Below, piece by piece: positions 2,873-26,272 of a DNA stretch of 32,000 bases; within the stretch, counting starts at the first letter, position 1, and every line of letters begins with the position of its first letter. The stretch lies in assembly GCA_020632335.1 (NCBI GenBank), contig JACKFV010000001.1, positions 390,001 to 422,000 on the forward strand, given 5' to 3'. The notes beneath the pieces were generated by a model. The model had not been told where the DNA came from, did no database searches, and worked only from the letters and a program-made list of their open reading frames with translations. Both the position numbers and the translations under genes were made by a program. This DNA is from Candidatus Saccharimonadota bacterium. Its GTDB lineage: Bacteria; Patescibacteriota; Gracilibacteria; UBA4473.

Positions 2873-2881
2873 AAGCCTAGT

Positions 2882-3327: not shown

Positions 3328-3356
3328 TTGACAGAAATGTGGTTACTGTCTAGGGT
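3328..3356 (+). promoter_or_regulatory. Candidate promoter for the GH17-GT2 gene (perfect -35 TTGACA, weak -10)
   Basis: TTGACA at 3328-3333 in the divergent intergenic region. After a 17-nt spacer comes TAGGGT (3351-3356), which matches the -10 consensus at only 3/6 positions. Confidence 0.2.
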
Positions 3357-3411
3357 GCGTATGTAGAGTATCTGTATACACTCTCTGAAAAATACCTGGC
3401 GCCAGTGGCTC

Positions 3412-5949: not shown

Positions 5950-6250
5950 ATATCTATTACCAATATTTTTGCTATGTAGTTGTGGTAAAATAGCTGGTAT
6001 TAGCGGTCTGGCTGTGCAGCGCTATAGCACGGTATCTCTCGCTCTGCTGGCACTCGGTAGACCATATATAGGGCGGTGCACAACGCTAGTTTCGGGGTTA
6101 TTTATAGCTGATAATCGGTTGTAAATACTTCTAAAAAGAGCATTAAACCACAATAGTGCAACTATGTAGCACTTGGGTGCACCGCAGCACCTACTTGTGC
6201 TTGCGCGCGGCTCTCTCCATCGTAGATGCTGTATCGTATACCCCAGATTC

Positions 6251-6380
6251 ATGCGTCATCTGCGTCGCGCGCTCTCGGCTCTTCTCACCACGAGTCTCCT
6301 CGCTAGCCAGTACAGTGTCTGGCTGCTGGCAGGATTCCTTGGGAATCAGCTCATCAGCCCCGGCCAGGCCGCGGCGTCCT
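6251..6380 (+). other. Predicted signal peptide / N-terminal signal anchor of the giant protein
   Basis: Basic n-region (MRHLRR), a long hydrophobic stretch, then PGQAAAS as a possible AxA-type cleavage site. Confidence 0.5.
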
Positions 6381-15300: not shown

Positions 15301-18300
15301 CGCGCATACCTTCATCGGGGATGCGCCCAACCTGGAAATAGAGAAGACAGACAACGTGGACTTTGACGAGATTAATAACGAGCTGACCTACATCATCACC
15401 TACCGCAACAGTGGGAATGCCGACGCTCAAGACGTCACCATCACCGATACCCTCAGCGGGTATGTGAGCTACCAGAGCTTTGCGGTACTCAGCGGGCCCA
15501 TCACCAGCTGTAGCCATGACGGGTCACCACTGGGAGGAGACGTCACCTGTGACGCAGGGGGCAGTCCCCTCGCGACGCTGAGCGCGCAGGAGAGTGGCGA
15601 GATAGAGATCGTCGTACGGATAGAACCCGGCAGCCCCGAGCCGATGCAGCCCTTCCTAGACCAAATAATGCAAGAGAATGACCCGCTGATAGACAACAAT
15701 GTCTGCATCAGCATAGACCCCGACGAGGTCAATATTACCGATAACTGTGACCAAGACGAGACCGAAATCGCCAGTAGCTACGCCAGCCTGAGCGGTTATG
15801 TCTTCCTCGACGGGCTGGACGAAACCCCCACCGATGCGGTCTATGACCCCCTCAGCCCTGGTGACGATACTCCGCTCGAGAATGTGGTGGTGTACCTGCT
15901 GGGCGAGGATGTCTTTGGCCGCTACTATGGCCCTGCACCTACAGACCCCGTGTACGCACAACTCCTGGCGGATGGGGTGTTCCTCAATCTCCTGGGTGTG
16001 GCCGACCCGGCCAATACCCCTGGAGTAGCGTACCTCACACAGGTGAACTACAACGACGCCGCGCAGACCCTCCCCCACGGGACTACTAATAGTGACGGCC
16101 TCTATGGCTTCGTCGGGCTGACGCCGGGTACCTACCACACCGTGGAGATCCAGCCGGTGCACTACGCGTCTACCGGGTCAAATGCCGGCCACACGGTAGA
16201 CACCAGCAGTGGCAGCGCCGTGCTGACGGAGGTAGGGAGTGGCTCCCACAACGACGGAGGCAACAGCCCTAACGCGGGAGACATGGGCAGCACCCTCAGC
16301 GTGAATTACATCAGCGGTATTGTGCTCAGCAGCGGCGACGACAGCGTGCACAACGACTACGGTGAGGTAGGAGGGAGCATCGGAGACACGGTATTCTTTG
16401 AGCTCGAGGGGACGGCTGATGGACTCTATAATGGGACGGATATCTTGGCGCCGAATGTGCGCATACGCCTGAGCTATGACCTGGACGGTGACGGCACAGC
16501 AGACCACTTCCAGAGCCAGGTGACGGACCTCAATGGCGCGTATAGCTTTGACGCCCTGCCGCTCTATGACGATACAGGCGCTCCCCTTACCTACACGCTG
16601 TGGGTAGACAATAGCAGCATCCCCACCAGCTGGGACAGCACTGACGACGAAGCAGGGGGCGCGGGCAACACCGCAGACAACACGAGTGATAACCAGGCGC
16701 ATGACCCGCTCAGCACCACGGTGACGTTCTCAGACCCTACGCTGCAGCCCAACCGACACGTGACCGACGCGGACTTTGGCTACACGGGGCCGACGGGCAG
16801 CATTGGGAATACGGTCTTCTATGACGCGGACAGCAACGAGCTCTATGAGCCGGATAGTAACGGCGACGGCTATGTGCAAGCGGGCGAGGACGCGCCCATC
16901 CCCTATGTGCAGGTGACGCTCTACCTGGATAATGGCTTCCCGGGCCTGTATGAGCCGGCCTTTGACACCATCTACCAGGTGACGTATACCGACGCTGACG
17001 GCCAGTACCTCTTTGAGAACCTCCCGCTGGGGCAGGACTACATCGTGCGGGTGACCGACGGCACGGTGAATGACGGCAGCCCTGGCTATGGGGTCAGCTA
17101 TCTGAGTAATCATGTGAGTACTTACGCGGCCACGTATGGCAATAGCGCGAATGCCAGCACGGTGCCCAGCAGCCTGCAAGACCATGAGGGGCGCAACCCC
17201 AACGGGTACTTTGTACATCTGGAGGACGATACGGTGCTGGACCACCCGCAGCTCATCCACCACGAGTATGCCGACTTTGGCTATGTGATGCCCACCCCAG
17301 GGGAGATAGGCAACCAGGTGTGGTATGAGGCGGGCACCAACACCAGCTATGACAGCGGCACCGACGACGGCGCTGAGGGCATAGAGCTCACGCTGTACTA
17401 TGACGCCAACTGTGACGGCGCCTATGACCCCCTCGATAGTGACGGCGACGGCTGGCCCGACAGCGGTGACCAGTACTGGGGCACCACGATGACCGATGCC
17501 AACGGCCAGTATCTCTTCCCCTATCTGCCGTATAGCGACGGCCAGCACACGGATCCGCTCAGTGGAGAGGAGAGCATCTGCTACCTGGTAGCGGTGACGG
17601 ATACCCTCAATAATACCGCACTGACTACCACCGGCAGCACGGCGGATAACGAGAACAAGGACGAGAACGGCTACAGCGTGACACTGAGTGACGGCGCGGT
17701 GGGGAATACCCCAGGGGTGAGCAGTAACATCGACTACACGGCGGACTTTGGCTATGAGGCACCGGTGTGGGGCATTGTGGGGAATACGGTCTTCTATGAC
17801 ATCAACGGCGATGGGATCTATAATAGTGCTACGGAGGTGGCTATAGATGGCGTGGATATCGTGCTGCAGATCAACACCGACACCACGGGCACCAGCCCCA
17901 CCTGGCAGGACGCCAGCACCTACTATCCGCTACTAGACGACCGAGTGACCACCGGCGTCACGGCCAGTAACGACGACTGGAGCGGCGCCGCCTGGACACA
18001 AGGGCAGTATTTCTTTGCAGAGCTGCCGCTGATCCTCATAGACGGGGTAACGCCGGCGCAGTACCGCGCGGTGGTAGACGGGGCCACGCTGCCGGCTGGG
18101 TTCAGCACTGCGGACTCTACTCATGGGGTGACTACCAGCGAGTCCACCACCCAGAACCCCAGCCCAGGCGCTAACACCGACGACTACGCGCGGGACCCTG
18201 CGGGCTATATCTTCGCGCTGGACGACACGAACCCTGGGGTCAGTAATGTGGATCTGACGGGTGACTTTGGGATTATCCGCTATACGAATATTGGGGACCT

Positions 18301-21300
18301 GGTGTGGTTTGACGCCAATAATAGCTGCGCCCTCGACCCCAGCGAGACTGCGGGCATACCGGGCGTGGTGCTCACCCTCAGCTGGGACCAGAGCGACACG
18401 CTGAGCAATACCGCTGTAGAGGGCACTACCGGCGCCACGCCACTGGCCTACAGCGCTGGGGTGACCGCTACTACCAATGCCGATGGCGTGTACGACTTTG
18501 CGAGTGTGCCCGTGGTATGGCCACTGGGTGACCTCAGCGGAGTGACAAACCCCACCTATACCGTGAGCGTGAGTACGCCGCCTACGGGCTTCACCAGTAG
18601 CTACGCCAGTGGATCTGGCAGCTGTGACAATGGGGATAACACCGGCCACAACCCCGGGGGCAGTTCTACCGGGGCCATAAACCCCACCGTGAGCGTGGTG
18701 AATACTCTAGACTTTGGCTATACCGTCCTGGGGGAGATCGGCACCACGGTGTTCCTCGACCTCGACAAAGACGCAGTGTATGAGACAGCGAGTACCGAAT
18801 CGGGCATCAGTGGCGTGGAGGTGTGCCTCTATACCGACAGAGACAATAGTGGGAGTATAGACACCAGCTATGGCAGCAGTGATGAAGTCAGCTGCCTGAC
18901 CACTGACAGCACCGGCCAGTACCTCTTCACCGGGCTGCCAGTAGATGGTGGTGATGGCGCTACGCCACTGGACTACATCGTCATAGTGCCTAATAGCACT
19001 CCCAATGCCGGGGCTGACGGCAGCCTGATTACCGATGATGGCGGTCTGCTGGATGGCTACTTCTCGACCCATCAGAGCCAGCTCTACCCAGCGAATGAAA
19101 GCCCCACCAGCGACACCCTGACCAACAACGACGAGGCCGTGAGCCGTGACCCGGCGGGCTACCAGGTGCAGCTGAGCGTGGACCTGAGCAATGCCGCCAC
19201 AGACCCCAATACGCACGAGTATACGGCGGACTTTGGCTACCATGAGGAGAGCTATGACGCGCAGCTCAGCGGGTATGTTTTCCTCGACCCAGACGCCGAC
19301 ACCTGCCGAGACACCGGCAGTCTGACTACCCCGGCCCCCAGCTGCAGCGGCACGGACCCCGATAACGACGTACCGATGAATGGCGTGGAGATGGTGCTCT
19401 GGGGTATAGATGCCTTCGGGAATTACTACGGGCCAGCGCCAACCCACCCCCTATACCTGACGGCCATTACCGAGCTGGGACTCGACCCCGTGGCCTATGC
19501 GAGTAACCCTCCGGCGGAGTACTTCGTTATAGACCCAGCGCTCACCGGGCCGCAGGCTCCGCAGGCGGGCTATACCACCAATAGCTCTTGGCCAGCGGGG
19601 TACTACAACTTTGGGAGTCTGAACCCCGCCGCGGGCATCCTCACCCTGCCCGATGGGGCATACACCGTAGCAGAGATGCAACCCGCGGGCTATGGCTCTA
19701 CTGGGTCTAATGCGGGGGATAACCTCAGCGTGACGCTGAATGGTGAGGGATCGTATGAGAATAATCCGCTGAACCCAGGCGACCCTTGCGGCGCTACAGC
19801 GCTGACGGCCTGTGACCCTGCCCGGCCCTACACCGTGAATATCATCCGCGATATCCTCCTGCCGCCCAGCAGCCACAGCGAGGAGAATAACTTTGGAGAG
19901 CTCCTGGCGCAGATAGGGAACCATGTCTTCTGGGATACCAACCAAGACGGCACCTACAACGAGGGCGACAGTGGCATACCGGGCGTGACCCTCACCATAG
20001 CCTGTACCGACACCACCAGCGGTGACGTGGTCGATGTCATCGACGCTAGCACCGGCAGCGTGCTGCCCGCCCCCGTACAGCAAGTGACTGATAGCAGCGG
20101 TGGGTATACCTTCACTGGCATCCCCCTGGACGCTGACTGTACGGTGACAGTAGACCAAAGCACCCTCCCGGACCCTAGCGCTACCCCCACAGTGGGCATA
20201 GCGGATACTGATGAGGAGTCTCAGCACGGCACTACACCGAACACCTATACCGTCAGCACCAGCAGCAGTGACCCCAGTAGCTGGGTGATCCCTTATGTGG
20301 ACTTTGGCTACTACACAGACCAGCTGGGGAGTATCGGTGATCTTGTCTTTATGGATACCGACCAAGACGGCGCCTACAACGGCACGGACTATGGCATCGG
20401 CGGGGTGACGATCACCCTCTATGACGACAGCAGCTGTAGTAACCCCATCGCCACCGCGGTGACGGACGGCACGGGCGCGTATAGCTTCAGTATGATTCCC
20501 TTCGGTGACTATAGCGTGAGTGTGGACCTGGGCAGCGGCGCGCTGGGGGGGCTCAGCAGTACGCATGGGGAGGCGAGCGGTGCGGGCGCTAGCCCCGCAG
20601 ACGACAGTAATAATAATGCTGCGCATGACCCTGGGTGCATCACTGCCAGCATCGACAGCAGTGACCCGACCGAGAACGACGCGGACTTTGGCTTCACGGT
20701 GCCGGGGGGGCCGGTGATCCTCGGGAGCTTTGGGGATCTGGTGTGGCAGGACCTCAACGGTGATGGCCTCTACGACGCAGGAGAGCCACCACTGCCAGGG
20801 GTAGACGTCTGCCTCTATAATGACGTCAATAGCAGCGGCAGCTATGAGCCCGGCACTGACACCCTGGTGGGCCTGGGCTGTGAAACCAGTGACCTCAACG
20901 GCCAGTACCTCTACAGCGGGCTGCCGGTGGGCGACTACTGCGTGGTGGTGGATACCACTACCGTGCCGAGCGGCTACACCCACACCAGTGGCGGTACACC
21001 GGGGGTAGACAATACCAGCCACCCCGAGCAGTACTGCTTTAGCATCGTGAATACTCCAGAAGGGCTAGACCCACGGTATGGTTACTTTGGCTATGAGCCG
21101 GGGAGCAATAGCTGCATCGCTACGCTGGGGGGCACGGTCTTCTATGACGCGCAGCCCAGTGGCGGCTATGACACCAGTGGTGACAGTACCCTGGGGGGCG
21201 TGACGCTAGAGATCTACGCGGGGAATAGCCTCGTGACTACCACCACCACAGACGCGCAGGGGGACTATCAGCTCACCCTGCCCTGTGGCCAGTATGCGGT

Positions 21301-24300
21301 AGTGGTGACCGATGACTACGGCGTGCTGCCCAGCGGCTGGACGAGCACCCACACTAGCGGCCTGAGCAGCCAGTACATGGGGCCAGATAACCTCAGCAAA
21401 GACCCTACGGGCTACAGCATGGTCATCACTACCAATGGGCAGGTGAACCTGACCGGGGACTTTGGCTACTACGGTGATGGCTCGAACCCCGTCTACGGCA
21501 GCATCGGCGACTACGTCTGGCTGGACCTCAACGGCGATTGCATACAAGACGCGGGCGAGGCAGGCATCGCGGGGGTGGAGGTAACGCTGGTCACCAGTAG
21601 CGGGGCCACCTACACCACGCTGACCGACAGCAGCGGCCTGTACCTCTTCAGCGGCCTACCAGCAGACACCTACACCGTGCTGATAGACGGCAGCAGTAGC
21701 CCGAACCAGAGCTCGCTCAGCGGGCTGCAGAGCACCTATGAGAGCAGCTGTACCCAGGCGCAGGACCCCTCTGGCAGCAGTACGAGCATCAATGGGAATA
21801 GCGTTCTGAGCGTTGACTTCCCCTACAACCAGACAGGCGGCCCGGTGGATAGCTGCAGCGCGGCCACCTACACGGGGGTCATCGGTGATACGGTCTTCTA
21901 CGACGCTGATGGCGACGGCCAGTACGACGAATCTGGCCCAGACTATGGCCTGGGAGGCGTGCCGGTGGTGCTCTATGCGAGTGATGGCGTGACGGTAGTG
22001 GTCACAACCACCACCACCGCCAGCGGAGCGTATAGCTTCCTCGTCACCAGCCCGGGGACCTACACCGTGGCTCTGGGGACGCTCCCGGCATTCTATAGCG
22101 GACTGGTGAGTACCCACACCACGGCCACCCATGGCGCGCCACACAGTGACGGCAACCCAGACCTAGCGCGCGACCCTGCGGGGTATAGCGTGACGCTGAG
22201 CGCCAGCCCCAGCTGTGACCAGACTGACCGCTCAGCGGACTTTGGCCTGGCGGCGGCGGTGGTACCACCAAACCCCTTCATCGGGGAGATCGGCAATGCG
22301 GTGTGGTATGACGACGACCGCGACGGCGTGTGGGATACCGGTGAAGCGCTCATCCCTAACGTGCTGATTATCGTCTATGATAGTAATGACGTGCCCGTGT
22401 GTGAGACCCTCACCACCAGTACCCCCAACGCCACGGGCGGCAACTGGCTCTGCACTGGGCTAGACGTGAATGAGACCTTCACCGTGGTGGTGGCTGATGA
22501 TACCACCCACCCCATGAGCCAGCACGTACTGGCGGGGATGACCCACAGCCTGGGCGTACAGAACCTGCCCGGCAGCAGCTATAGCACCGATAATAACAGC
22601 CAGAACGACAGCGGCTACATCGTGGATGTCCTCAGCCAGAGTACCCCTACCAACTACACCGCGGACTTTGGCTACTACGACGAGGACACCCCACCGGGCA
22701 CACCGCTGTGTAGCTTCGGGGATCAGTTCTTCCTGGATATGGACGACAATGATCTCTTCAGCACGGGGGAGGAGAGTTCTCTCTTCGACAACGTCACGGT
22801 GTCGCTCTATGCCGATGATAACGTGGACGGCATTGCCGACACGGGTACAGCGGTGTTGAGCATCACCCCAGACGCTACGGGCAGCTATAGCTTTGCTCCG
22901 GTGGTGTGTGGGCACTACGTGGTGGTGGTGATGGATATGAGCACCCTCCCCACGGGCCTGACCCCCACCAGCACCGGCGGCAACGGCACCGCGGCGGCGC
23001 CCAATGACGACAACAGCGACGGCATTAGTAAGGACCCCACCGCAGCGTATCCGGTATTCCTGGACCCTGCGGGAGACACCGCTCAGGTACACGGCGACTT
23101 TGGCTTTATCGTCGAGAATACCGCGTGTATGGGCAGCGTGGGCGACTATATCTTTGAGGAATCCGACACGGATGGTGACCAGAGCACCGCACTGGTAGGG
23201 CCGGTGGAAGGCGTGACGATCACCCTGACCGATAGCATCACCGGGCAGGTCTACACCACCACCAGCGACGCCAGCGGGGCGTATAGCTTCTCACCAGTGC
23301 CGTGTAGCGACTACACCGTCACGGTGGCCAATAGCACTGACCCGGTGCTGCTTGGCAATCAGCTGGTGCCCACCAATGGCACCACGCAGACTAGCAACGG
23401 GTATAGCGTCACCATCACCAATGGCGTGGTGGTAGATACGGCGGACTTCAGCTATCAGCAAGACCCGACCATACCCCCCACACCAACGCTCATCACCATC
23501 GGGGACTTCACCTGGGAGGATAGCAATGGCGACGGCATCCAAGACTCTGGCGAGCCTCCCCTCAGCGGCATAGATCTCTGCCTGCACGTGGACCTCAACG
23601 GTAATGGCAACCCCTATGACGACACGCCCATCAGCACCACCACCAGCAACAGTAGCGGGCTCTATAGCTTCACGAGCTTGCCCGCTGGGGTGGACTACCA
23701 TGTGGCGGTATGCGGCTACCCGCTGACGCACGTGCCCACCACCCCCACGCAGCTGCAGGGCCCCATAGATGACCCCGTGAGCGATAACAGCTATAACTTT
23801 GGCTTCCAGCCGCTGGTGCTGCCACCGCCACCCACTACACCTCTGGGGAGCATCGAGGCGACGGTATTCTATGACGAAAACGGCGACGGCACCCTGAATG
23901 GCGCTGACACGGGCATCGCGGGAGTGACGGTATGGCTGGTGCGTGACCTGAATGGTGACGGCACCTATGACCCGGCTAGCGAGACCGTGGCCACCACACT
24001 GACCAATAGTAGCGGCATCTATGCCTTTACGCAGCTGCCGGTGGTGGACAGCACGGGCAACCCCGTGACCTACCAGGTGGTCGTAGACGCCAGTAATCCG
24101 CTCTCACCGCTCAGCAATATGCTGCCGACGGTCACTGTGGCGGACACCCCCGGCCCAGACGAGAACGAGACCACCACGCATACTGAGCTCGTGACGCTGA
24201 GCCCCAGCGCGCCGGATAACACCGAGGTGGACTTCGGGTATGTGCTCGACCCTCTGGCGCCTGTGGTGGGGACCATCGGCTACCACGTGTGGTGCGAGTG

Positions 24301-26272
24301 CGCGCACAACGCCGATGGGATCTATGGTAATAGCAGCGACGAAATGCCGGTGCCAGGCGTGGGGATCTCGCTCTACACGGACCTCAACGGCGATGGCATC
24401 ATCGACACCACCGTGGGCGGCCCTGACGAGTTCATCAGCCAGATAATGACAGATAGCTCCGGGCAGTATGCCTTCACGGGCCTGCCGGTACAGGACGGCG
24501 CTGGGCAGCCGATAGAGTACCGCGTGGTCGTGACGCAAGACAACGGCTACAGCACCATACTGGGAGCCGACGCGCAGGTGCAGACGGGCTACAGCGTGAC
24601 GCTCAGCCCCGTGCAAAATGTGCATCTGCTGGCTAACTTTGCGCAGGTGCTGGGCTCTATAGGCGACACCGTGTGGCATGACGCGAATACAAACGGCGTG
24701 CAAGACAGCGGCGAGGCGGGCATACCAGGGGTAGTCGTGACGCTCTACGACGAGGCGGGAGTGGTCATCGGCACCCGGGTGACCGACGCAGACGGGCACT
24801 ACTACTTCTGTGGGCTGCCGCACGGCACCTACACCGTGACCACCAGCACCCCCGCGCAGTACCCCAACGCCAGCACCCCCACCAGCTGGACGGTAACCCT
24901 CACCCCCAGCAGCTATGTGAGTGATACTGAGGATTTTGGCTTCTACAAAGACACCCCCACCACCACGAGCACCACCACCGGCGGCAGCGTGCCAGACGGC
25001 CCTCCGATAGACTACAGCACGACAACCGGCACCACTACAGGTACCACGACGGGCACTAGCACCACGGGGACCACCGACGGCACTAGCACCGGCGTGACGC
25101 TGCCACCGAACATAGACCCCGAACTGCCGCTCATCGTCTTCCCTCCACGGCCCAAGCCCACTATGCCAGACCGCCAGTACGTGCGGGAGAATGACCTCAT
25201 CCGCAAGCTGGAGGAGCTGCCACAGACGGGGTTCAGCACACTGGGGCCGGTGCCAGAGCAAATCATCAGAGCCTTTGACGCGGGGTCTATCTTCTCGGAT
25301 ACTGACGTGAACGACGACGGCTACGTCGAGATGATCAACCTGCATCTGCAGAATATCCTCCCCATTGACCGCAGCATGCGCTTTGCGCCGAAGGAACCCA
25401 TCAGTGGTATAGACGCCGCGGTGATGATGATCGGTAGTCAGGAGGCCGTGGAGGACTACGAGATCCTCGACGATTACTTCTACCAGCAGGCGGCACTGAC
25501 CGAGCACTGGTATGATGAGATCCTCTGGTATGTGGCGGAGTACGATATTGACCTCGGGTTTAAGTGGACGCTGCCCGGAGCAGGCTACTTCCTCACCATG
25601 GACGACGCCACCAGCATCACGGCGCAGGCATTCCATATCCTCCCGTCAGACATGCTGCAGGCGTGGGACAGCCCCGTGGATATGTACCGCGAGGGGCTCA
25701 TCGAGCGCAATATCATCAACGGTGAGATGGAGCAGTGGCCACGAGAGGGCACGCTCAGCCGGGTGGAATTCGCTATGCTGCTCAGCCGAGTACTCATGTA
25801 CCATGATCTGAAAGACGTGGGCATGGCCAAACTCCCCAAGGACGTGCAACTGCACAGCAGCATCAAGGGGCTGGAGAAAGATGTGCCCGTGCACTTTGCC
25901 CTGCCGAATGAGCACAGTGGCTGGGTGGAGGCCCTGCACTATGGTCTGGCGATGTACGAGCGCCCCAGCGATAGCATCGACCCAGGGCAGTTGTACCTGT
26001 GGGGGCATAGCTCTGAGGTGCCCAACTACCCCATGAGCAAGCAGCCCTACGGGCATATCCTCAACGCGCTCTGGAGTGGCGCCAACATAGGCGAAACCCT
26101 AACCCTCACCACTGACGGGCAGGCAGAGACCTACATCATCCGTGATATACAGCGTATGGTGCCCAAGGCCGCGGTAGAGACCTGGCAGGACTACTCCGAG
26201 CACGATATGGTGCTGATGACCTGTGAGAAAGACATCGACTACCGGATGAACGTCTGGCTGGATAAACTCTAG
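6251..26272 (+). CDS. Giant (about 6,673 aa) secreted multidomain surface/adhesin-like protein with C-terminal LPQTG + SLH/sortase-like module
   Basis: Uninterrupted 20.1-kb ORF; the track starts it at TTG 6173. ATG 6251 gives a signal-peptide-like N-terminus (MRHLRRALSALLTTSLLASQYSVWLLAGFLG) and is preferred. Recognisable DUF11-like, SdrD-B-like, propeller-like, SLH-like and sortase-like modules occur throughout. Stop is TAG at 26270-26272. Confidence 0.9.
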   Translation: MRHLRRALSALLTTSLLASQYSVWLLAGFLGNQLISPGQAAASFVINDSVGVYTYTAGSQWMPGIIPPTGNPGNISDPSYNLTPAGGTGITLYDTGLGTAHVSTIAVSPLSFDAWERLVIHTGLVSPQHSYTVEVFDCSSGNLLSGTAPSLGTLTQGNTSSGQIVYDMSGYDNTYTCLQAQVTMQQGGASFPPVIEGIDIEWDPRPVWLTDISCAGSPTEVGSQGSYTVRYSLSYADDSNSVVWVPLPSDGNGILYPGAYPTPGSATNASSAYGQTVPPTAPTSISHGGQYTPTATTVLGQAIPANSIYWQLGAVKAGETGVMSFSWPLPNGFQDGITGAFQSSVTSANTGVLSSSPVVCPYTATPEPRMNKEVSGGFYQSNTQTHYLFDSFGYSTVATYHLDYSNYRELAPHPYWGSRNSTSDGKGGEEVYNAVLVDDVSEIIDALDASCGGSSGAITAISSGGVLDSLAKTITWSLGDLAINDYGEVTYSVDYGGCPEDTTVTNTATLYGDNITPLQDSEIVSIQTPPRGKGAFAKGDEADWYNTINGTTQYSVPQIWSHVDNNIPGIYLNKWDIQPHTHEEAITYYLRAATTEQGGNRAMSDVVMVDKIRKSGNALDDPNVGAAFSGVTFISAKLDPSITQYGRIFYYTGSDTTPAIEPGSDAPLYDYADFAAYAGPADTDIGGGSLGWKLYSLSTTPPASVDWVAFYIPCISSNAFPISTEPWGRCAYGDYNPLHPNALDSNPNNDYVPDRITNSITVTIDTPADACESYVIPNEGNFKAHRLPTDTPGTPAREDLEWHSGRGDSDLSLSEGFSSVGDLEYTHVVPTLGGFGYSSMEVDGESTIYMTDTDTFSTSITVENLGSDTALNTTVEVPIPVVAANNGSFGLTLLGVSLGGWSGSVDYSGLPNSISINLGTLPVGMQAELSLDWQLPMGIPDNTLVPLTATVSFADNNSCPTPSQPLDTAVVVRNTPELVLNKYRDAALIPSGEAVNYQITALNLGPAVSSDTFVFDEVPEYMVLKSAYVQTVDDNGTMYNCNSNGSMACKVYFFPRGQSCGAVNPNGIISSSNPITASDIYSCFEEGQETSPGSGEWIPTSFSAEDTLYIAWLLDEAFTPHFFPVNKLVTVGFQAINDTNYSNGLSDPLVDGSPAGTLLQNFPAIVSQELLQAIGNQVFTTIIPEPLMQITKQSSTNYINAGGDFEWTVNYVNESLTESTISVLQETLPAGVILQEVWHEWNFRADQNGAPASAGAYGAPVKLWDSSTSNGAVTVNALPGGTTVQVAINNDGSEAASFPGVPLDSSGNTLRGGPLGLLEGGTFTLKVSAPADAETWDLLHNEAQIDFKTSHGVNTVDDSDDVYVQNPELLISKTASVEETISGNGFQYAMVVRNQGLWQAENVVIADTLPAELSYVPGSLQVIGTTYSVINEAYTGGYGGTLSFSLSNGSDPDGVLPANSGTIYLLYAVTVDPGTPPGTVMTNSASIVNDLLENPDPNPSCDPGDPRLTGQLATPDAGNPLYYCNNITEDSVLIPYFDPYITKRAPDQVQGGDYFDYTLRYGNGTQQPGEEVFIADALPSYNTVTDSDGNPSNGTVTLENVVVSNGETIYYTYAPTLTDLSTLDYSTVISWSTTPALPYTTHIAIVPSGGTMPGLAGPYTVTVRVQASDAATGIAHVAGTIMNNATMVQSSSTDPECIPGDPAYDPGFSACGDDTDDTVTKTPGFDLSIEKFADKEGIFPGYTPGETLQYTIRVGNSAISAEPACGVYVQELSYPEELDPSTITHDWTSPGFVDQTTGAPISYLTPAGLGYDTVPSSCVQITTADTDSDTVTDQWTLDTTAAPGCPSSYEALCIPPGAVQTFSISGKIMLDMPDYFDSGDPIENTIQVCNHDGTAPDDCAPGAEDIPNNNQASSLTVVYRSDPISSNSGYSCGEDDICGNEDDSAQTANAGDTIAYTVTYDNLGHTGAENSVLEETIPEGTCLEVGSIAGEIPVSASITYSNDNGSSWTYTPVADGNGQDCAVTHFRIDFGTLPAPAGFAADPSSDPLVGYQGDASALIEEALCFGGIAAIPNNLQVIGTGESTIAGGTRGTSALEGSDGNLYVAWANNGEDNEIWMWDGSTWAIIGSGESALPGSTYASSMLEGSDGNLYVAWANNGQDNEIWMWDGSTWAIIGSGESNITGSSYASSMLEGSDGNLYVAWANNGQDNEIWMWDGSAWTIIAYYGSVSSTGTVAMAPAAGGSFFIAWANRGNQDNVVWEYDPSPGYAVTTLQKTLLPVVTGTLTSWGDYTFDYSTPDDSSLVVRVQNINASGVCGGTTLAGPVTLSGADTSYTIDMSGIAATNTALCIRATFTPSSDGVSSPLLDCGSFSYDVLEPDNPSVLYTTQANNTQCIGTPSYTPNTWEVIGFGESSLGGNTGSTALLQGSDENFYVAWANNNNQANEVWMWDGSAWTIIGSGESSVAGFTKDTALLEGADGNLYVAWANGQALPNEVWMWDGAAWTIIGSGESGFNGYTETTSLLEGTDGNLYVAWGNTSAAGAPNEVWMWDGAAWTIIGSGESSIAGSTSDSSMIEGADGNLYVAWANNGQDNEVWMWDGSAWTIIGSGESSIAGSTYGSSMIEGSDGNLYVAWANNGQDNEVWMWDGSAWTIIGSGESSVTGGTHTSSMLEGTDGNLYVAWGSYSGQTTNEVWMWDGSAWTIIGSGESTATGNTGSSGMIEGSDGSLYVSWANYGGQANQVWRYTTPVADAYGLETTYQTLLSASPDASAWDTLYLNTVLDDELLGTATVAVYDASCTTQLLGITDASIGLVDISTIPVATHPSICIAVTLALPALTQQPIGSTNPAQLCGLYATYTAPSPTFGFRVGVQTAGLTVDTINNTVCISTDTPELDENNNCGEDEIVLLNSELSLTKTVDQSVAHTGDTLTYTLEVCNNGQHQAQDVEITDTLPVLLTGVVFSPDITSTSPDYASLNAGACETITVTGTIDAGATSGDILTNQACVVGTQYDPDETNNCDTAHTFIGDAPNLEIEKTDNVDFDEINNELTYIITYRNSGNADAQDVTITDTLSGYVSYQSFAVLSGPITSCSHDGSPLGGDVTCDAGGSPLATLSAQESGEIEIVVRIEPGSPEPMQPFLDQIMQENDPLIDNNVCISIDPDEVNITDNCDQDETEIASSYASLSGYVFLDGLDETPTDAVYDPLSPGDDTPLENVVVYLLGEDVFGRYYGPAPTDPVYAQLLADGVFLNLLGVADPANTPGVAYLTQVNYNDAAQTLPHGTTNSDGLYGFVGLTPGTYHTVEIQPVHYASTGSNAGHTVDTSSGSAVLTEVGSGSHNDGGNSPNAGDMGSTLSVNYISGIVLSSGDDSVHNDYGEVGGSIGDTVFFELEGTADGLYNGTDILAPNVRIRLSYDLDGDGTADHFQSQVTDLNGAYSFDALPLYDDTGAPLTYTLWVDNSSIPTSWDSTDDEAGGAGNTADNTSDNQAHDPLSTTVTFSDPTLQPNRHVTDADFGYTGPTGSIGNTVFYDADSNELYEPDSNGDGYVQAGEDAPIPYVQVTLYLDNGFPGLYEPAFDTIYQVTYTDADGQYLFENLPLGQDYIVRVTDGTVNDGSPGYGVSYLSNHVSTYAATYGNSANASTVPSSLQDHEGRNPNGYFVHLEDDTVLDHPQLIHHEYADFGYVMPTPGEIGNQVWYEAGTNTSYDSGTDDGAEGIELTLYYDANCDGAYDPLDSDGDGWPDSGDQYWGTTMTDANGQYLFPYLPYSDGQHTDPLSGEESICYLVAVTDTLNNTALTTTGSTADNENKDENGYSVTLSDGAVGNTPGVSSNIDYTADFGYEAPVWGIVGNTVFYDINGDGIYNSATEVAIDGVDIVLQINTDTTGTSPTWQDASTYYPLLDDRVTTGVTASNDDWSGAAWTQGQYFFAELPLILIDGVTPAQYRAVVDGATLPAGFSTADSTHGVTTSESTTQNPSPGANTDDYARDPAGYIFALDDTNPGVSNVDLTGDFGIIRYTNIGDLVWFDANNSCALDPSETAGIPGVVLTLSWDQSDTLSNTAVEGTTGATPLAYSAGVTATTNADGVYDFASVPVVWPLGDLSGVTNPTYTVSVSTPPTGFTSSYASGSGSCDNGDNTGHNPGGSSTGAINPTVSVVNTLDFGYTVLGEIGTTVFLDLDKDAVYETASTESGISGVEVCLYTDRDNSGSIDTSYGSSDEVSCLTTDSTGQYLFTGLPVDGGDGATPLDYIVIVPNSTPNAGADGSLITDDGGLLDGYFSTHQSQLYPANESPTSDTLTNNDEAVSRDPAGYQVQLSVDLSNAATDPNTHEYTADFGYHEESYDAQLSGYVFLDPDADTCRDTGSLTTPAPSCSGTDPDNDVPMNGVEMVLWGIDAFGNYYGPAPTHPLYLTAITELGLDPVAYASNPPAEYFVIDPALTGPQAPQAGYTTNSSWPAGYYNFGSLNPAAGILTLPDGAYTVAEMQPAGYGSTGSNAGDNLSVTLNGEGSYENNPLNPGDPCGATALTACDPARPYTVNIIRDILLPPSSHSEENNFGELLAQIGNHVFWDTNQDGTYNEGDSGIPGVTLTIACTDTTSGDVVDVIDASTGSVLPAPVQQVTDSSGGYTFTGIPLDADCTVTVDQSTLPDPSATPTVGIADTDEESQHGTTPNTYTVSTSSSDPSSWVIPYVDFGYYTDQLGSIGDLVFMDTDQDGAYNGTDYGIGGVTITLYDDSSCSNPIATAVTDGTGAYSFSMIPFGDYSVSVDLGSGALGGLSSTHGEASGAGASPADDSNNNAAHDPGCITASIDSSDPTENDADFGFTVPGGPVILGSFGDLVWQDLNGDGLYDAGEPPLPGVDVCLYNDVNSSGSYEPGTDTLVGLGCETSDLNGQYLYSGLPVGDYCVVVDTTTVPSGYTHTSGGTPGVDNTSHPEQYCFSIVNTPEGLDPRYGYFGYEPGSNSCIATLGGTVFYDAQPSGGYDTSGDSTLGGVTLEIYAGNSLVTTTTTDAQGDYQLTLPCGQYAVVVTDDYGVLPSGWTSTHTSGLSSQYMGPDNLSKDPTGYSMVITTNGQVNLTGDFGYYGDGSNPVYGSIGDYVWLDLNGDCIQDAGEAGIAGVEVTLVTSSGATYTTLTDSSGLYLFSGLPADTYTVLIDGSSSPNQSSLSGLQSTYESSCTQAQDPSGSSTSINGNSVLSVDFPYNQTGGPVDSCSAATYTGVIGDTVFYDADGDGQYDESGPDYGLGGVPVVLYASDGVTVVVTTTTTASGAYSFLVTSPGTYTVALGTLPAFYSGLVSTHTTATHGAPHSDGNPDLARDPAGYSVTLSASPSCDQTDRSADFGLAAAVVPPNPFIGEIGNAVWYDDDRDGVWDTGEALIPNVLIIVYDSNDVPVCETLTTSTPNATGGNWLCTGLDVNETFTVVVADDTTHPMSQHVLAGMTHSLGVQNLPGSSYSTDNNSQNDSGYIVDVLSQSTPTNYTADFGYYDEDTPPGTPLCSFGDQFFLDMDDNDLFSTGEESSLFDNVTVSLYADDNVDGIADTGTAVLSITPDATGSYSFAPVVCGHYVVVVMDMSTLPTGLTPTSTGGNGTAAAPNDDNSDGISKDPTAAYPVFLDPAGDTAQVHGDFGFIVENTACMGSVGDYIFEESDTDGDQSTALVGPVEGVTITLTDSITGQVYTTTSDASGAYSFSPVPCSDYTVTVANSTDPVLLGNQLVPTNGTTQTSNGYSVTITNGVVVDTADFSYQQDPTIPPTPTLITIGDFTWEDSNGDGIQDSGEPPLSGIDLCLHVDLNGNGNPYDDTPISTTTSNSSGLYSFTSLPAGVDYHVAVCGYPLTHVPTTPTQLQGPIDDPVSDNSYNFGFQPLVLPPPPTTPLGSIEATVFYDENGDGTLNGADTGIAGVTVWLVRDLNGDGTYDPASETVATTLTNSSGIYAFTQLPVVDSTGNPVTYQVVVDASNPLSPLSNMLPTVTVADTPGPDENETTTHTELVTLSPSAPDNTEVDFGYVLDPLAPVVGTIGYHVWCECAHNADGIYGNSSDEMPVPGVGISLYTDLNGDGIIDTTVGGPDEFISQIMTDSSGQYAFTGLPVQDGAGQPIEYRVVVTQDNGYSTILGADAQVQTGYSVTLSPVQNVHLLANFAQVLGSIGDTVWHDANTNGVQDSGEAGIPGVVVTLYDEAGVVIGTRVTDADGHYYFCGLPHGTYTVTTSTPAQYPNASTPTSWTVTLTPSSYVSDTEDFGFYKDTPTTTSTTTGGSVPDGPPIDYSTTTGTTTGTTTGTSTTGTTDGTSTGVTLPPNIDPELPLIVFPPRPKPTMPDRQYVRENDLIRKLEELPQTGFSTLGPVPEQIIRAFDAGSIFSDTDVNDDGYVEMINLHLQNILPIDRSMRFAPKEPISGIDAAVMMIGSQEAVEDYEILDDYFYQQAALTEHWYDEILWYVAEYDIDLGFKWTLPGAGYFLTMDDATSITAQAFHILPSDMLQAWDSPVDMYREGLIERNIINGEMEQWPREGTLSRVEFAMLLSRVLMYHDLKDVGMAKLPKDVQLHSSIKGLEKDVPVHFALPNEHSGWVEALHYGLAMYERPSDSIDPGQLYLWGHSSEVPNYPMSKQPYGHILNALWSGANIGETLTLTTDGQAETYIIRDIQRMVPKAAVETWQDYSEHDMVLMTCEKDIDYRMNVWLDKL
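6571..6855 (+). repeat. Unnamed ~95-aa domain, copy 1 of 3
   Basis: SPLSFDAWERLVIHTG...YTVEVFDCSSGNLLSG...IVYDMSGYDNTYTCLQAQVT...PPVIEGIDIEW. It aligns with the copies at 13094 and 14540 through a shared W-x-x-L ... V-x-V-x-D/N-x-S ... L-x-G ... (I/V)D(M/I)S ... (L/I)C(I/L) ... pattern. Confidence 0.5.
9177..12210 (+). repeat. Region with at least six DUF11-like (conserved repeat domain) modules
   Basis: Module starts include LVLNKYRDAALIPSGEAVNYQITALNLGP, LMQITKQSSTNYINAGGDFEWTVNYVN, LLISKTASVEETISGNGFQYAMVVRNQGLWQAENVVIADTLPAELSYVPGS, PYITKRAPDQVQGGDYFDYTLRYGNG, LSIEKFADKEG...TLQYTIRVGN and ANAGDTIAYTVTYDNLGHTGAENSVLEETIPEG. All fit the DUF11 pattern (x-K-x ... GD-x-hydrophobic-x-Y-x-hydrophobic-x-hydrophobic-x-N-x-G ... 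hydrophobic-x-D-x-L-P). Confidence 0.6.
12482..13036 (+). repeat. Propeller-like tandem repeat block 1: four 48-aa blades (144-nt DNA period)
   Basis: IG(T/S)GES...(S/T)..(A/M)LEGSDGNLYVAWANNG(E/Q)DNEIWMWDGS(T/A)W(A/T)I repeated three times, with ctcgag landmarks at 12533, 12677 and 12821 (exactly 144 nt apart). A fourth copy is degenerate (...GGSFFIAWANRGNQDNVVWEYD). The first three copies are near-identical at the DNA level. Confidence 0.85.
13094..13369 (+). repeat. Unnamed ~95-aa domain, copy 2 of 3 (directly after propeller block 1)
   Basis: GTLTSWGDYTFDYSTPDDSSLVVRVQNINASGVCGGTTLAGPVTLSGADTSYTIDMSGIAATNTALCIRATFTPSSDGVSSPLLDCGSFSY. Confidence 0.5.
13469..14479 (+). repeat. Propeller-like tandem repeat block 2: seven 44-51-aa blades
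   Basis: Seven consecutive units of IGxGES-x12-(L/I)(E/Q)G(S/A/T)D(G/E)(N/S)(L/F)YV(A/S)W(A/G)N...N(E/Q)VW(M/R)(W/Y)DG(S/A)AWTI. Units 4 and 5 (about 13920-14210) are almost identical in DNA. Seven blades is the count of a closed beta-propeller. Confidence 0.85.
14540..14818 (+). repeat. Unnamed ~95-aa domain, copy 3 of 3 (directly after propeller block 2)
   Basis: SPDASAWDTLYLNTVLDDELLGTATVAVYDASCTTQLLGITDASIGLVDISTIPVATHPSICIAVTLALP...PAQLCGLYATYT. Confidence 0.5.
14968..15640 (+). repeat. Two further DUF11-like modules
   Basis: SELSLTKTVDQSVAHTGDTLTYTLEVCNNGQHQAQDVEITDTLPVLL and PNLEIEKTDNVDFDEINNELTYIITYRNSGNADAQDVTITDTLSGYVSYQS. Both are close matches to the DUF11 consensus. Confidence 0.7.
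15782..24943 (+). repeat. Array of about 21 SdrD-B-like (Cna-B/prealbumin-type, Ca-binding) modules
   Basis: Each unit begins G-(S/E)-I-G-(D/N)-x-V-(F/W)-x-D and carries a DxNxDGxxD loop, then (I/L)xGVxVxLY, then TxTDxxGxYxFxxLP.GxYxV, and ends in (A/T)DFG(Y/F). I counted 21 such starts by eye (15782, 16370, 16800, 17305, 17770, 18290, 18730, 19260, 19910, 20330, 20725, 21120, 21500, 21875, 22285, 22710, 23135, 23495, 23845, 24275, 24655; approximate). Units 1 and 8 belong to a longer subtype (SGYVFLD ... FG(R/N)YYGPAPT ... QP.(H/G)Y(A/G)STGSNAG). Confidence 0.75.
24947..25165 (+). repeat. Low-complexity Thr/Gly-rich then Pro-rich linker (wall-spanning-type region)
   Basis: KDTPTTTSTTTGGSVPDGPPIDYSTTTGTTTGTTTGTSTTGTTDGTSTGVTLPPNIDPELPLIVFPPRPKPTMP. 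Confidence 0.8.
25217..25231 (+). other. LPQTG (LPXTG-type sortase recognition motif), residues about 6323-6327 of the giant protein
   Basis: Codons ctg cca cag acg ggg are in frame. By my reading this is the only LPxTG in the protein. It sits between the Thr/Pro linker and the C-terminal sortase-like module and is not followed by a hydrophobic helix or basic tail. Confidence 0.5.
25232..26269 (+). other. C-terminal 346-aa module of the giant protein: three degenerate SLH-like segments + sortase-like domain, paralogous to CDS 1817..2872
   Basis: Colinear matches to the 351-aa protein: (G/Y)SIFSDT, TEHWYDEILWYVAEY vs PTQWYFPYAETLLRM, GTLSRVEFAMLLSRVL vs TPVTRAEVFTLLSRTL, LYLWGHSSE vs FIVFGHSST, GETLTLTTDGQAETYII vs GDTLTLTVDGQPRHYVI, VLMTCEKDIDYR vs LLFTCNTDLSER. 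His is at 26006-26008, Cys at 26222-26224 and Arg at 26243-26245. Confidence 0.7.

What the first reader, a model, noticed from the sequence alone, without database searches (positions are those of the whole stretch)
25217..26272. Giant surface protein carries an LPQTG motif followed by its own SLH + sortase-like domain instead of a membrane anchor
Seen in sequence: the giant ORF ends with the layout of a Gram-positive sortase substrate, namely a Thr/Gly-rich then Pro-rich linker (24947-25165) followed by LPQTG (25217-25231). The canonical hydrophobic helix and basic tail are absent. In their place are 346 aa colinear with the whole mature part of the standalone protein at 1817-2872: three SLH-like segments and a sortase-like domain retaining GHSS (His 26006-26008), TLTLT.DGQ, (L/F)(M/T)TC (Cys 26222-26224) and Arg (26243-26245). 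Established knowledge: sortases use a His-Cys-Arg triad with a TLxTC-type motif and cleave LPXTG between T and G, and SLH triplets bind secondary cell-wall polymers non-covalently. Inference: the enzyme-like domain and its recognition motif sit in one polypeptide. This suggests a self-contained anchoring or auto-processing device, with cis or neighbour-in-trans cleavage releasing or transferring the ~6,300-aa passenger while the SLH-sortase piece stays wall-bound. I do not know of a described system with this arrangement. Caveat: a single LPxTG in a 6.7k-aa Thr/Gly/Pro-rich protein is not improbable by chance. The argument rests on its position at the linker/module junction and on the parallel with the 2882-3265 / 1817-2872 gene pair.
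Basis: partly seen in the sequence, partly recalled or inferred. Interest (0 to 1): 0.9.

Follow-up and report, generated by a model that had tools for sequence, protein, structure and literature searches.

The report
Surface proteins carrying their own sortase
In a group of tiny uncultured (CPR/Peregrinibacteria) bacteria, huge surface proteins end not with the usual membrane anchor after their LPxTG "cut-and-attach" signal but with a wall-binding module fused to the very enzyme (a sortase) that recognises such signals, a conserved and apparently undescribed self-contained anchoring cassette.

Summary
The 6,699-aa ORF (6173-26272) ends with an S/T/G/P-rich linker, LPQTG (25217-25231) and a 346-aa module colinear with the standalone gene 1817-2872. 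An AlphaFold model of the module matches only sortases in its C-terminal half. His, Cys and Arg are invariant across the family and align with the catalytic residues of S. aureus SrtA. The family profile also matches SLH triplets of S-layer proteins. An exhaustive profile search found about 40 relatives, all named ones from Peregrinibacteria, Peribacteria or 'Gracilibacteria' MAGs. Twenty-eight of them carry an N-terminal passenger of up to 6.7k aa. In 26 of these 28, [LIVFWY]PxTG sits exactly at the passenger/module junction (binomial tail 2e-47), preceded by a conserved R-x2-[DN][DN]-hydrophobic segment. The one member with Cys replaced by Ser also has a broken motif. Twice independently the gene is split just after the motif, in the window (LPLTG-VLR-stop) and in another metagenome (LPTTG-K-stop). 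One relative has the window's split pair as a single fused gene. The best reading is a substrate-plus-enzyme sorting cassette that replaces the membrane anchor. Cleavage itself, cis versus trans action and the acceptor are untested. No description was found in the literature or in curated family libraries.

The parts
6173..26272 (+). Giant surface-protein ORF (6,699 aa from TTG; first ATG at 6251). N-terminal signal-like segment, DUF11 repeats, propeller-like repeats, at least 15 SdrD B-like / Cna-B-type domains, then the C-terminal cassette.
24947..25183 (+). Low-complexity T/G-rich then P-rich linker, analogous to a wall-spanning region, ahead of the sorting signal.
   Evidence: Similar S/T/G/P-rich linkers precede the motif in homologs.
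25184..25231 (+). Extended sorting signal RENDLIRKLEE-LPQTG. The pre-motif segment matches the family consensus R-x2-[DN][DN]-hydrophobic-x4-5, followed by LPQTG (25217-25231). The presumed scissile bond lies between Thr (25226-25228) and Gly (25229-25231).
   Evidence: AF2 pLDDT is 83 for the pre-motif block and below 50 just after the motif.
25247..25825 (+). Divergent SLH-like triplet, colinear with the three SLH repeats of the standalone protein. Only the third repeat keeps an R-x-E (SRVE) in place of TRAE.
   Evidence: Not detected by Pfam SLH in this copy. Helical pattern in the AF2 model.
25832..26269 (+). Sortase-fold catalytic domain: His 26006-26008 (GHSS), Cys 26222-26224 (LMTCE), Arg 26243-26245.
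1817..2872 (-). Standalone secreted SLH x3 + sortase (351 aa; NCBI name 'sortase', Candidatus Peribacteria). Signal peptide at 2810-2872. His 2078-2080, Cys 1868-1870, Arg 1847-1849.
2882..3265 (-). 127-aa membrane-anchored mini-substrate. TM helix at about 3167-3232, Pro/Ala-rich spacer, signal REANNLELLSV-LPLTG (LPLTG = 2894-2908), then VLR and a TAG stop. It lies in the same frame as 1817-2872, 9 nt upstream, and is colinear with the N-terminal 147 aa of the fused homolog P0002.

Best explanation
The last ~370 aa of the giant protein form a self-contained sorting cassette with three parts: an extended sorting signal (R-x2-[DN][DN]-hydrophobic ... [L/I]PxTG), an SLH-type wall-binding triplet, and a catalytically competent sortase domain. 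The cassette stands where canonical Gram-positive surface proteins have LPXTG + hydrophobic helix + basic tail.

Proposed mechanism:
1. After Sec export, the SLH-sortase module holds the precursor at the cell wall.
2. The pre-motif segment docks on the module, and the [L/I]PxTG lies in a flexible loop.
3. The sortase Cys, of the same chain or of a neighbouring or standalone copy, attacks the Thr-Gly bond and forms a thioacyl intermediate with the passenger.
4. The passenger is handed to an amine acceptor, either a peptidoglycan side chain or cross-bridge or a Lys of another surface protein.
5. The SLH-sortase piece stays in the wall.

The pair 2882-3265 / 1817-2872 is the same device split into substrate and enzyme.

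Shown: the sortase fold and invariant triad, SLH homology at family level, conservation of the motif at the junction, and the gene fissions and fusion at the motif. Inferred: that cleavage occurs, cis versus trans action, and the identity of the acceptor.
For: - Sortase fold: all top 50 PDB Foldseek hits are sortases (on a model of pLDDT 81 / pTM 0.85).
- Catalytic residues: His, Cys and Arg are invariant in the alignments and align with the SrtA catalytic residues.
- SLH: the family profile matches SLH triplets of Sap, SbsB and SpaA and sortases. Pfam gives SLH in 17/24 and Sortase in 20/24 members.
- Recurrent architecture: an exhaustive HMM search of 1.84 billion representatives found about 40 close relatives, many of them 761-4,811-aa proteins with the domain at the extreme C-terminus.
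- Motif at the junction: 26 of 28 passenger-bearing members have [LIVFWY]PxTG there, usually as the only such motif in the protein. The binomial tail is 2e-47, and the pre-motif segment is conserved.
- Motif tied to a passenger: standalone members with a signal peptide lack both the motif and the pre-motif segment, so the motif is not part of the module's core fold.
- Joint decay: the only member with Cys replaced by Ser (P0143) has FPQLG instead of FPxTG.
- Gene fission exactly after the motif, twice. In the window it reads LPLTG-VLR-TAG and is identical in two independent assemblies. In L007/L008 it reads LPTTG-K-TAG, followed by a promoter-like spacer and a signal peptide.
- Fused version of the window pair: P0002.
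- Several cassettes per genome: P0135 lies on the same 630,865-bp contig.
- AF2, in two independent models: the pre-motif segment is confident (pLDDT 83 and about 90), while the residues just after TG are below 50, as expected for an exposed processing loop.
Against: - No biochemical or proteomic evidence of cleavage exists.
- Model coordinates could not be inspected, so I do not know whether the Thr-Gly bond can reach the Cys in cis. AF2 confidence for the motif itself is only about 60-70.
- In the second model the pre-motif strand appears paired with a strand in the SLH region rather than obviously lying in the sortase groove. This is a reading of the DSSP string only.
- The window's own sortase domains score just below the Pfam gathering threshold.
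- The giant protein's SLH segment is not recognised by Pfam and keeps only one R-x-E motif, so its binding to secondary cell-wall polymer is uncertain.
- A separate housekeeping sortase is common in CPR. Ordinary-looking sortases appear among the weaker hits, and one of these could be the enzyme that uses the motif.
Confidence: 0.62

Rival explanations
1. The junction motif is a substrate for a different, conventional membrane-anchored sortase of the cell. The C-terminal SLH-sortase only retains the precursor near the wall, replacing the TM helix and charged tail, and its own catalytic activity is directed at other proteins.
For: Sortases with an N-terminal TM helix and Pro-rich linker ('FTCWP' type) appear among the weaker hits of the profile search (sequences). 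CPR papers report a housekeeping sortase (PMC4736985; PMC6851277). Canonical sortases act on lipid II at the membrane, whereas a wall-bound enzyme would need another acceptor.
Against: This does not explain why the motif is tied so tightly to this particular sortase subfamily (26/28), nor why the Cys-to-Ser member has also lost the motif. It also does not explain why fissions leave substrate and enzyme as adjacent genes. The conserved pre-motif segment is confidently packed on the module in AF2 models.
Confidence: 0.15
2. The motif is an uncleaved pseudo-substrate or lid. It occupies or guards the active site of the fused sortase. The giant protein stays in one piece and is held non-covalently by the SLH triplet, and the sortase at its base works on other substrates when the lid is displaced.
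For: Class C sortases have an autoinhibitory lid (my own knowledge), and they are the top structural matches. The pre-motif segment looks like an integral, docked part of the module in AF2. P0109 keeps an intact triad with a decayed motif (TLQTH) behind an N-terminal TM anchor, showing that the enzyme can exist permanently tethered.
Against: A lid need not preserve the exact P-x-T-G of a true substrate: P is present in 28/28, T in 26/28 and G in 28/28. Standalone enzymes lack the segment altogether. Independent gene fissions 1-3 residues after the Gly fit a natural break point, not an intramolecular lid.
Confidence: 0.12
3. After cleavage there is no transfer. The sortase acts as a site-specific autoprotease (hydrolysis), either shedding the passenger or leaving it bound non-covalently through the docked pre-motif segment, as in GAIN or SEA domain autoproteolysis.
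For: Sortases hydrolyse their acyl intermediate when no nucleophile is available (established knowledge). The AF2 models suggest the pre-motif segment is held by its own contacts, which could keep the fragments together.
Against: Nothing here distinguishes hydrolysis from transpeptidation. The wall-spanning type linkers upstream of the motif fit retention at the wall better than shedding.
Confidence: 0.08
4. Chance or artefact: the LPQTG is a random pentapeptide in a T/G/P-rich protein, and the split gene pair is a sequencing error.
For: About 0.35 LPxTG are expected anywhere in the giant protein from its composition.
Against: The junction motif is conserved across the family, binomial tail 2e-47. 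The split junction is identical in two independent assemblies and the downstream gene has its own signal peptide. TAG is the normal stop codon here, in 8 of 11 genes.
Confidence: 0.01

Closest known systems
Canonical sortase / LPXTG cell-wall sorting of Gram-positive bacteria (class A sortase, e.g. S. aureus SrtA)
   Same: The LPxTG-type pentapeptide follows a low-complexity wall-spanning linker at the end of repeat-rich (SdrD-B / Cna-B type) adhesins. The enzyme has the sortase fold with a His-Cys-Arg triad and a (L/I)FTC signature.
   Different: Substrate and enzyme are in one polypeptide. There is no hydrophobic helix or basic tail after the motif. The enzyme is not membrane-anchored but follows an SLH triplet. 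An extra conserved pre-motif segment (R-x2-[DN][DN]-hydrophobic) is present. No curated sortase class model (A-F, GN) reaches its cut-off.
Class C (pilus-polymerising) sortases and their pilin substrates
   Same: These are the best structural matches: 2xwg and 2w1j SrtC-1. NCBIfam class C is the specific class model hit by most members, 10/24, though weakly. The family's motifs (IPQTG, YPLTG, FPKTG, IPNTG) resemble pilin sorting signals such as IPQTG and YPRTG (my recollection of pneumococcal and GBS pilins, not tested here).
   Different: There is no pilin motif or E-box evidence, no pilus gene cluster, and the enzyme is fused to its substrate. Only one member (P0126) has a C-terminal TM anchor like class C enzymes.
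SLH-anchored S-layer and cell-wall proteins (B. anthracis Sap, G. stearothermophilus SbsB, P. alvei SpaA)
   Same: A three-repeat SLH module, matched by the family profile at E 4.7e-20 to 1.9e-12. It presumably binds secondary cell-wall polymer non-covalently.
   Different: Here the SLH triplet sits between a sortase recognition motif and a sortase domain at the C-terminus. The giant protein's own copy is degenerate.
Engineered self-cleaving sortase-LPXTG fusion proteins used for tag removal and protein ligation
   Same: Enzyme and recognition motif are in one chain, allowing intramolecular or neighbour cleavage. This rests on my own knowledge. Reviews retrieved mention sortase self-cleavage constructs, but I did not read them.
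   Different: Those are laboratory constructs, usually with the sortase N-terminal to the motif. The arrangement here is natural, conserved, and has the passenger N-terminal and the enzyme C-terminal.
Hedgehog / HINT-type C-terminal autoprocessing domains, and GAIN / SEA autoproteolysis
   Same: The logic is the same: a C-terminal domain uses a Cys thioester to detach the N-terminal passenger and pass it to an acceptor (cholesterol in Hedgehog). In GAIN/SEA, fragments can stay associated after cleavage.
   Different: The fold and chemistry are unrelated: a sortase acyl-enzyme at an LPxT-G bond, not an N-to-S acyl shift. This is an analogy only, not homology.

Membership tests
Sortase (cysteine transpeptidase, Pfam PF04203) | Eight-stranded sortase beta-barrel fold | tested here: met
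   AF2 model with pLDDT 81.3 and pTM 0.85. The top 50 Foldseek PDB hits are all sortases, E down to 3.7e-8, probability 1.0.
Sortase (cysteine transpeptidase, Pfam PF04203) | Catalytic His-Cys-Arg at the canonical positions, with Cys in a TLxTC-like motif | tested here: met
   H286, C358 and R365 are invariant in 24 sequences and are kept in all but one intact member. The motif is (L/I)FTC(D/N), LMTCE in the giant protein. Spatial juxtaposition was not measured.
Sortase (cysteine transpeptidase, Pfam PF04203) | Profile score above the curated threshold | tested here: inconclusive
   Window copies score 24.1 and 25.6 bits against a cut-off of 26.6. 20/24 family members match at E<0.01, best 1.7e-14.
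Sortase (cysteine transpeptidase, Pfam PF04203) | Membrane anchoring of the enzyme by an N- or C-terminal TM helix | tested here: not met
   The giant protein has no hydrophobic segment after 25231. The standalone protein has a cleavable-looking signal peptide followed by SLH repeats. Exceptions in the family are P0002 and P0109 (N-terminal TM) and P0126 (C-terminal TM).
Sortase (cysteine transpeptidase, Pfam PF04203) | Cleavage of LPXTG between T and G, with transpeptidation | not testable with these tools
   Needs biochemistry or proteomics.
Named sortase classes A-F / GN (NCBIfam) | Match to a class model at its trusted cut-off | tested here: not met
   There are only weak hits, to sortase_fam (14/24), class C (10), D (9), E (4), F (3) and GN (2). 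For the standalone protein, class C scores 14.7 bits against a cut-off of 160.
SLH domain triplet (PF00395) | Three tandem SLH repeats detectable by profile | tested here: inconclusive
   The standalone protein scores 55.5 bits and 17/24 family members match. The family profile hits the Sap SLH triplet at 4.7e-20. The giant protein's own segment has no Pfam hit; the assignment rests on colinearity and the helical pattern of the model.
SLH domain triplet (PF00395) | TRAE-type motif in the repeats and binding of pyruvylated secondary cell-wall polymer | not testable with these tools
   Read directly from the sequence, the standalone protein has TRAE in repeats 1 and 3, while the giant protein keeps only SRVE in repeat 3. 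Binding cannot be tested here, and csaB was not looked for because the rest of the genome is not available.
Canonical LPXTG cell-wall sorting signal | LPXTG pentapeptide near the C-terminus after a wall-spanning linker | tested here: met
   LPQTG at 25217-25231 follows the T/G/P-rich linker. It lies 346 aa from the C-terminus rather than about 30.
Canonical LPXTG cell-wall sorting signal | Hydrophobic helix plus positively charged tail immediately after the pentapeptide | tested here: not met
   In the giant protein the motif is followed by FSTLGPVPEQIIRAF... and the SLH-sortase module. In the small protein it is followed by VLR and the stop codon.

The most novel reading that the evidence does not exclude
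This would be an 'autosortase' cassette. Each large adhesin of these CPR bacteria brings a single-use, wall-docked sortase as its own C-terminal domain. The conserved pre-motif segment docks by strand or helix complementation on an exosite of the SLH-sortase module. The enzyme then cleaves its own [L/I]PxT-G junction in cis. Through the thioacyl intermediate it ligates the multi-thousand-residue passenger to the wall or to another surface protein. That would be a Hedgehog-like self-processing logic built from a sortase, independent of the membrane and of lipid II. Standalone SLH-sortases with vacant exosites would serve split substrates in trans.
Probability: 0.3. Interest if true: 0.88.

Novelty: new variant of a known kind. 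Interest (0 to 1): 0.8.

Why it matters
Sortase-mediated anchoring is a textbook two-component process: a membrane-anchored enzyme acts on separate substrates that are retained by a hydrophobic tail. A natural, conserved fusion of substrate signal, wall-binding module and enzyme would be a new way of building a cell surface.

If confirmed, it would:
- show that a sortase can work from within the wall rather than from the membrane;
- explain how giant adhesins are fixed on ultra-small, host-dependent CPR cells, whose surface biology is almost unknown;
- provide a compact natural self-ligating or self-cleaving sortase module, with an extended recognition element, of possible use in protein engineering.

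It is directly testable with one recombinant ~400-aa construct.

Tried and rejected
- A word-indexed homology search with the giant protein's C-terminus alone found nothing. The same tool with the 24-sequence alignment returned mostly SLH-only proteins. The family became visible only with the exhaustive profile search.
With the tighter A4 it gave only 3 genome loci and 2 metagenome loci.
- A PDB search with the 3-sequence catalytic profile found nothing. The 24-sequence profile and hhalign did find matches.
- Model coordinates are not exposed, so no Cys-to-scissile-bond distance or triad geometry could be measured.
- Stop-codon recoding or readthrough of the in-frame TAG between 2882-3265 and 1817-2872 was considered and rejected. 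TAG ends 8 of 11 genes in the window and TGA is also used as a stop.
- A sequencing error at that junction was rejected: it is identical in two independent assemblies.
- A partner LPxTG gene next to every standalone enzyme was looked for. None lies within 6 kb of the L002 standalone gene, so adjacency is not universal.
- Exact-sequence look-up of the giant protein failed with two candidate starts. The first start was mis-set by one codon. Its public annotation is therefore unknown.
- Eight literature searches found no description of a natural substrate-sortase or SLH-sortase fusion. The library lacks most subscription journals, so this absence is not proof.

Full report
**1. What is in the window**

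The window (60% G+C) carries these genes: dnaA (282-1745, -), the gene 1817-2872 (-), a 127-aa ORF (2882-3265, -), a GT2 glycosyltransferase (3412-5328, +), a 202-aa ORF, the 6,699-aa ORF 6173-26272 (+), then dprA, a TIM-barrel gene, ssb, rmuC and a DUF4012 gene.

The product of 1817-2872 is 100% identical to a protein that NCBI names 'sortase [Candidatus Peribacteria bacterium]', on a 630,865-bp contig. The organism is therefore a member of the CPR (Peregrinibacteria/Peribacteria). TAG ends 8 of the 11 genes and TGA ends one, so the standard bacterial code applies.

**2. The observation**

The giant protein is a typical repeat adhesin, with 4 DUF11 domains, propeller-like repeats and at least 15 SdrD B-like / Cna-B type domains. 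Its end reads: T/G-rich then P-rich linker...RQYVRENDLIRKLEE-LPQTG-FSTLGPVPEQIIRAF..., then 346 aa up to the stop. There is no hydrophobic helix or basic tail.

LPQTG is the only LPxTG in the protein. About 0.35 are expected by chance, so alone it proves nothing.

The 346 aa are colinear with the whole mature standalone protein (26% identity, E 1e-11). Pfam Sortase hits both copies just under threshold (24.1 and 25.6 bits against 26.6). Pfam SLH is clear in the standalone copy only.

**3. The module is an SLH triplet plus a real sortase domain**

An AF2 model of residues 25151-26269, built with 24 homologs, has pLDDT 81.3 and pTM 0.85. All of its top 50 Foldseek matches in the PDB are sortases, led by class C and class A enzymes (E 3.7e-8, probability 1.0).

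In the 24-sequence alignment the invariant columns are one Trp, plus His286, Cys358 and Arg365.

The family profile matches the SLH triplets of Sap (E 4.7e-20), SbsB and SpaA, and also sortases such as 4d70 (1.6e-9). Pfam finds SLH in 17/24 members and Sortase in 20/24. No NCBIfam sortase class model comes near its cut-off, so this is an unclassified sortase lineage.

The giant protein's own SLH segment is degenerate. It has no Pfam hit, and only repeat 3 keeps an R-x-E.

**4. The arrangement is a conserved family trait**

An exhaustive profile search of 1.84 billion representative proteins with the catalytic domain gave 165 hits, 33 of them at E<=1e-10. The close relatives fall into two groups.

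- Proteins of 330-440 aa with a signal peptide directly in front of the module (P0001, P0106, P0110, P0119, P0131 and others).
- Proteins of 476 to 4,811 aa with the module at the extreme C-terminus. Their passengers are unrelated to one another: DUF11, DUF2341, Cys-rich repeats, SdrD-B and more.

In 26 of the 28 passenger-bearing proteins, counting the giant protein, a [LIVFWY]PxTG motif lies at the passenger/module boundary, 1-6 residues before the first conserved helix of the module. Examples are LPLTG, IPQTG, IPRTG, LPKTG, WPRTG, FPKTG and YPLTG. The two exceptions read IPRSG and FPQLG.

Only 6 such motifs occur anywhere else in 48,416 aa, giving a binomial tail of 2e-47. That tail was computed on the 25 that fell inside the script's window. 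The giant protein's motif lay 3 residues outside it.

A further ~12 residues upstream are conserved, with consensus R(-11)-x-x-[DN](-8)-[DN](-7)-hydrophobic(-6). The giant protein (RENDLIRKLEE-LPQTG) and the small ORF of the window (REANNLELLSV-LPLTG) fit this pattern.

Members without a passenger lack both the motif and the pre-motif segment. The signal therefore belongs to the junction, not to the fold of the module.

The single member whose catalytic Cys is replaced (P0143, FTS) is also the one with FPQLG.

All named members come from Peregrinibacteria, Peribacteria or 'Gracilibacteria' MAGs. Their annotations ('DUF11 domain-containing', 'DUF2341 domain-containing', 'S-layer homology domain-containing', 'hypothetical') do not recognise the arrangement.

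One genome can hold several cassettes. P0135 (2,587 aa, IPQTG) is on the same contig as the window. P0108 and P0118 share another contig, and their MAG also has a standalone copy.

**5. Fusion and fission at the motif**

P0002 (476 aa, 46% identical to the standalone enzyme) has this layout: N-terminal TM helix, ~100-aa spacer...SNVLLVET-LPLTG-LKVD-IPAWLRSKY..., SLH x3, sortase. Its first 147 aa are colinear with the window's 127-aa ORF (E 7e-4).

In the window the same unit is split. The small ORF ends LPLTG-VLR-TAG. Nine nucleotides later, in the same frame, the enzyme gene starts with a signal peptide that P0002 lacks. The junction is identical in two independent run assemblies.

A second, unrelated split occurs in metagenome contigs L007/L008, where the enzyme is P0110. 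An upstream ORF with a Ser/Gly linker ends ...EIMIDE-LPTTG-K-TAG. It is followed by a 72-nt spacer with a TTGACC-N17-TATTTT promoter-like site, then the signal peptide and the module, again in frame.

Two fissions 1-3 residues after the Gly, and one fusion, mark the Thr-Gly region as the natural seam between a substrate part and an enzyme part. They also show that the enzyme must be able to act in trans.

Adjacency is not universal. The standalone gene in L002 has no LPxTG neighbour within 6 kb.

**6. Mechanism**

Best-supported reading (0.62): the cassette replaces the canonical TM helix and charged tail. The SLH-sortase retains the exported precursor at the wall. The sortase Cys, from the same chain, a neighbouring chain or a standalone copy, attacks the Thr-Gly bond. 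The passenger, held as a thioacyl intermediate, is passed to an amine acceptor. The SLH-sortase piece, now beginning with Gly, stays wall-bound.

Two independent AF2 models add a hint. The pre-motif segment is predicted with high confidence: pLDDT 83 in the giant protein, and about 90 with a short strand and helix in the L003 homolog. The motif block is less confident, and the three residues after TG are below 50. This pattern fits a docked recognition element followed by an exposed, flexible processing loop. Standalone enzymes would then have a vacant docking site for substrates in trans. This step is inference from pLDDT and DSSP strings only, because coordinates and PAE were not available.

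The acceptor is unknown. The motif types and the structural neighbours lean towards class C (protein-to-protein ligating) sortases, but that resemblance rests partly on my memory of pilin signals.

The rivals are:
- the motif serves another, housekeeping sortase (0.15);
- it is an uncleaved pseudo-substrate or lid (0.12);
- cleavage ends in hydrolysis, with shedding or non-covalent retention (0.08);
- chance or artefact (0.01).

**7. Comparison with what is known, and novelty**

The parts are all known: the sortase fold and triad, an LPXTG-type signal after a wall-spanning linker, and an SLH triplet. The arrangement is not.

- The enzyme is fused C-terminal to its own recognition signal.
- SLH takes the place of a membrane anchor.
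- There is an extended conserved pre-motif element.
- The arrangement recurs on unrelated giant passengers.

As a family member, the catalytic domain passes the fold and triad tests for 'sortase'. It fails the membrane-anchor feature and belongs to no curated class. The signal passes the pentapeptide and linker tests for a cell-wall sorting signal but fails the hydrophobic-tail test.

In function, the closest analogies are laboratory self-cleaving sortase fusions and Hedgehog-type C-terminal autoprocessing domains. Neither is homologous in arrangement.

Eight full-text searches found no description of such a natural fusion (papers read). NCBIfam has no model for it.

I rate it a new variant of a known kind, with high interest because one recombinant construct would test it.

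Noticed in passing
window 2873-2884 (- strand), between ORFs 2882-3265 and 1817-2872: The two ORFs are in the same reading frame, separated by a TAG stop plus three codons (ACT AGG CTT). If read through, LPLTG would be followed by a hydrophobic stretch (LALLLLLCSVTAGLA), which resembles a canonical sorting signal. TAG is the normal stop here, so I treat this as a true gene fission.
   Followed up: yes
P0143 (514 aa; protein, no locus): This is the only family member with the catalytic Cys replaced by Ser (LFTSA). It is also the only one whose junction motif has Leu in place of Thr (FPQLG). Enzyme and motif appear to have decayed together.
   Followed up: partly
P0126 (2,194 aa) and P0109 (390 aa), proteins: P0126 has an extra ~130-aa tail after the sortase domain, ending in a TM helix plus KKHKE, i.e. 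a C-terminal membrane anchor as in class C sortases. P0109 has an N-terminal TM helix, an intact triad and a decayed motif (TLQTH), so it looks like a permanently membrane-tethered SLH-sortase.
   Followed up: no
L003 181-1719 (-) and L008 1663-3060 (+): VanW-domain proteins (PF04294, E 1e-40 to 1e-42) lie next to cassette genes in two unrelated loci. GT2 glycosyltransferases lie next to the module genes in the window (3412-5328) and in L003. This may be a cell-wall neighbourhood or may be coincidence.
   Followed up: no
window 282-1745 (-): dnaA lies immediately downstream of the standalone SLH-sortase gene, so the window is probably next to the chromosomal replication origin. dprA, ssb and rmuC follow the giant gene.
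   Followed up: no
window about 12470-14450 (+), giant protein aa about 2100-2760: There are two blocks of near-identical ~50-aa units (…GSDGNLYVAWANNGQDNEIWMWDGSTWAIIGSGES…), with weak Reg_prop (beta-propeller) hits. Each block is followed by a similar ~150-aa segment. The high identity between units suggests recent internal duplication.
   Followed up: no
L008 262-336 (+): The spacer between the LPTTG-K-stop ORF and the enzyme gene contains TTGACC-N17-TATTTT, a sigma-70-like promoter, so the enzyme gene may be transcribed on its own. This was read by eye and not scanned with the promoter tool.
   Followed up: no
window 3343-4485 (-) and many ORFs antisense to the giant gene (e.g. 9914-12145, 19451-21022, 24104-25636): Long ORFs lie on the opposite strand of real genes. 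This is expected in 60% G+C DNA and they are not genes. The translation of 3343-4485 is low-complexity and Arg/Pro-rich.
   Followed up: partly
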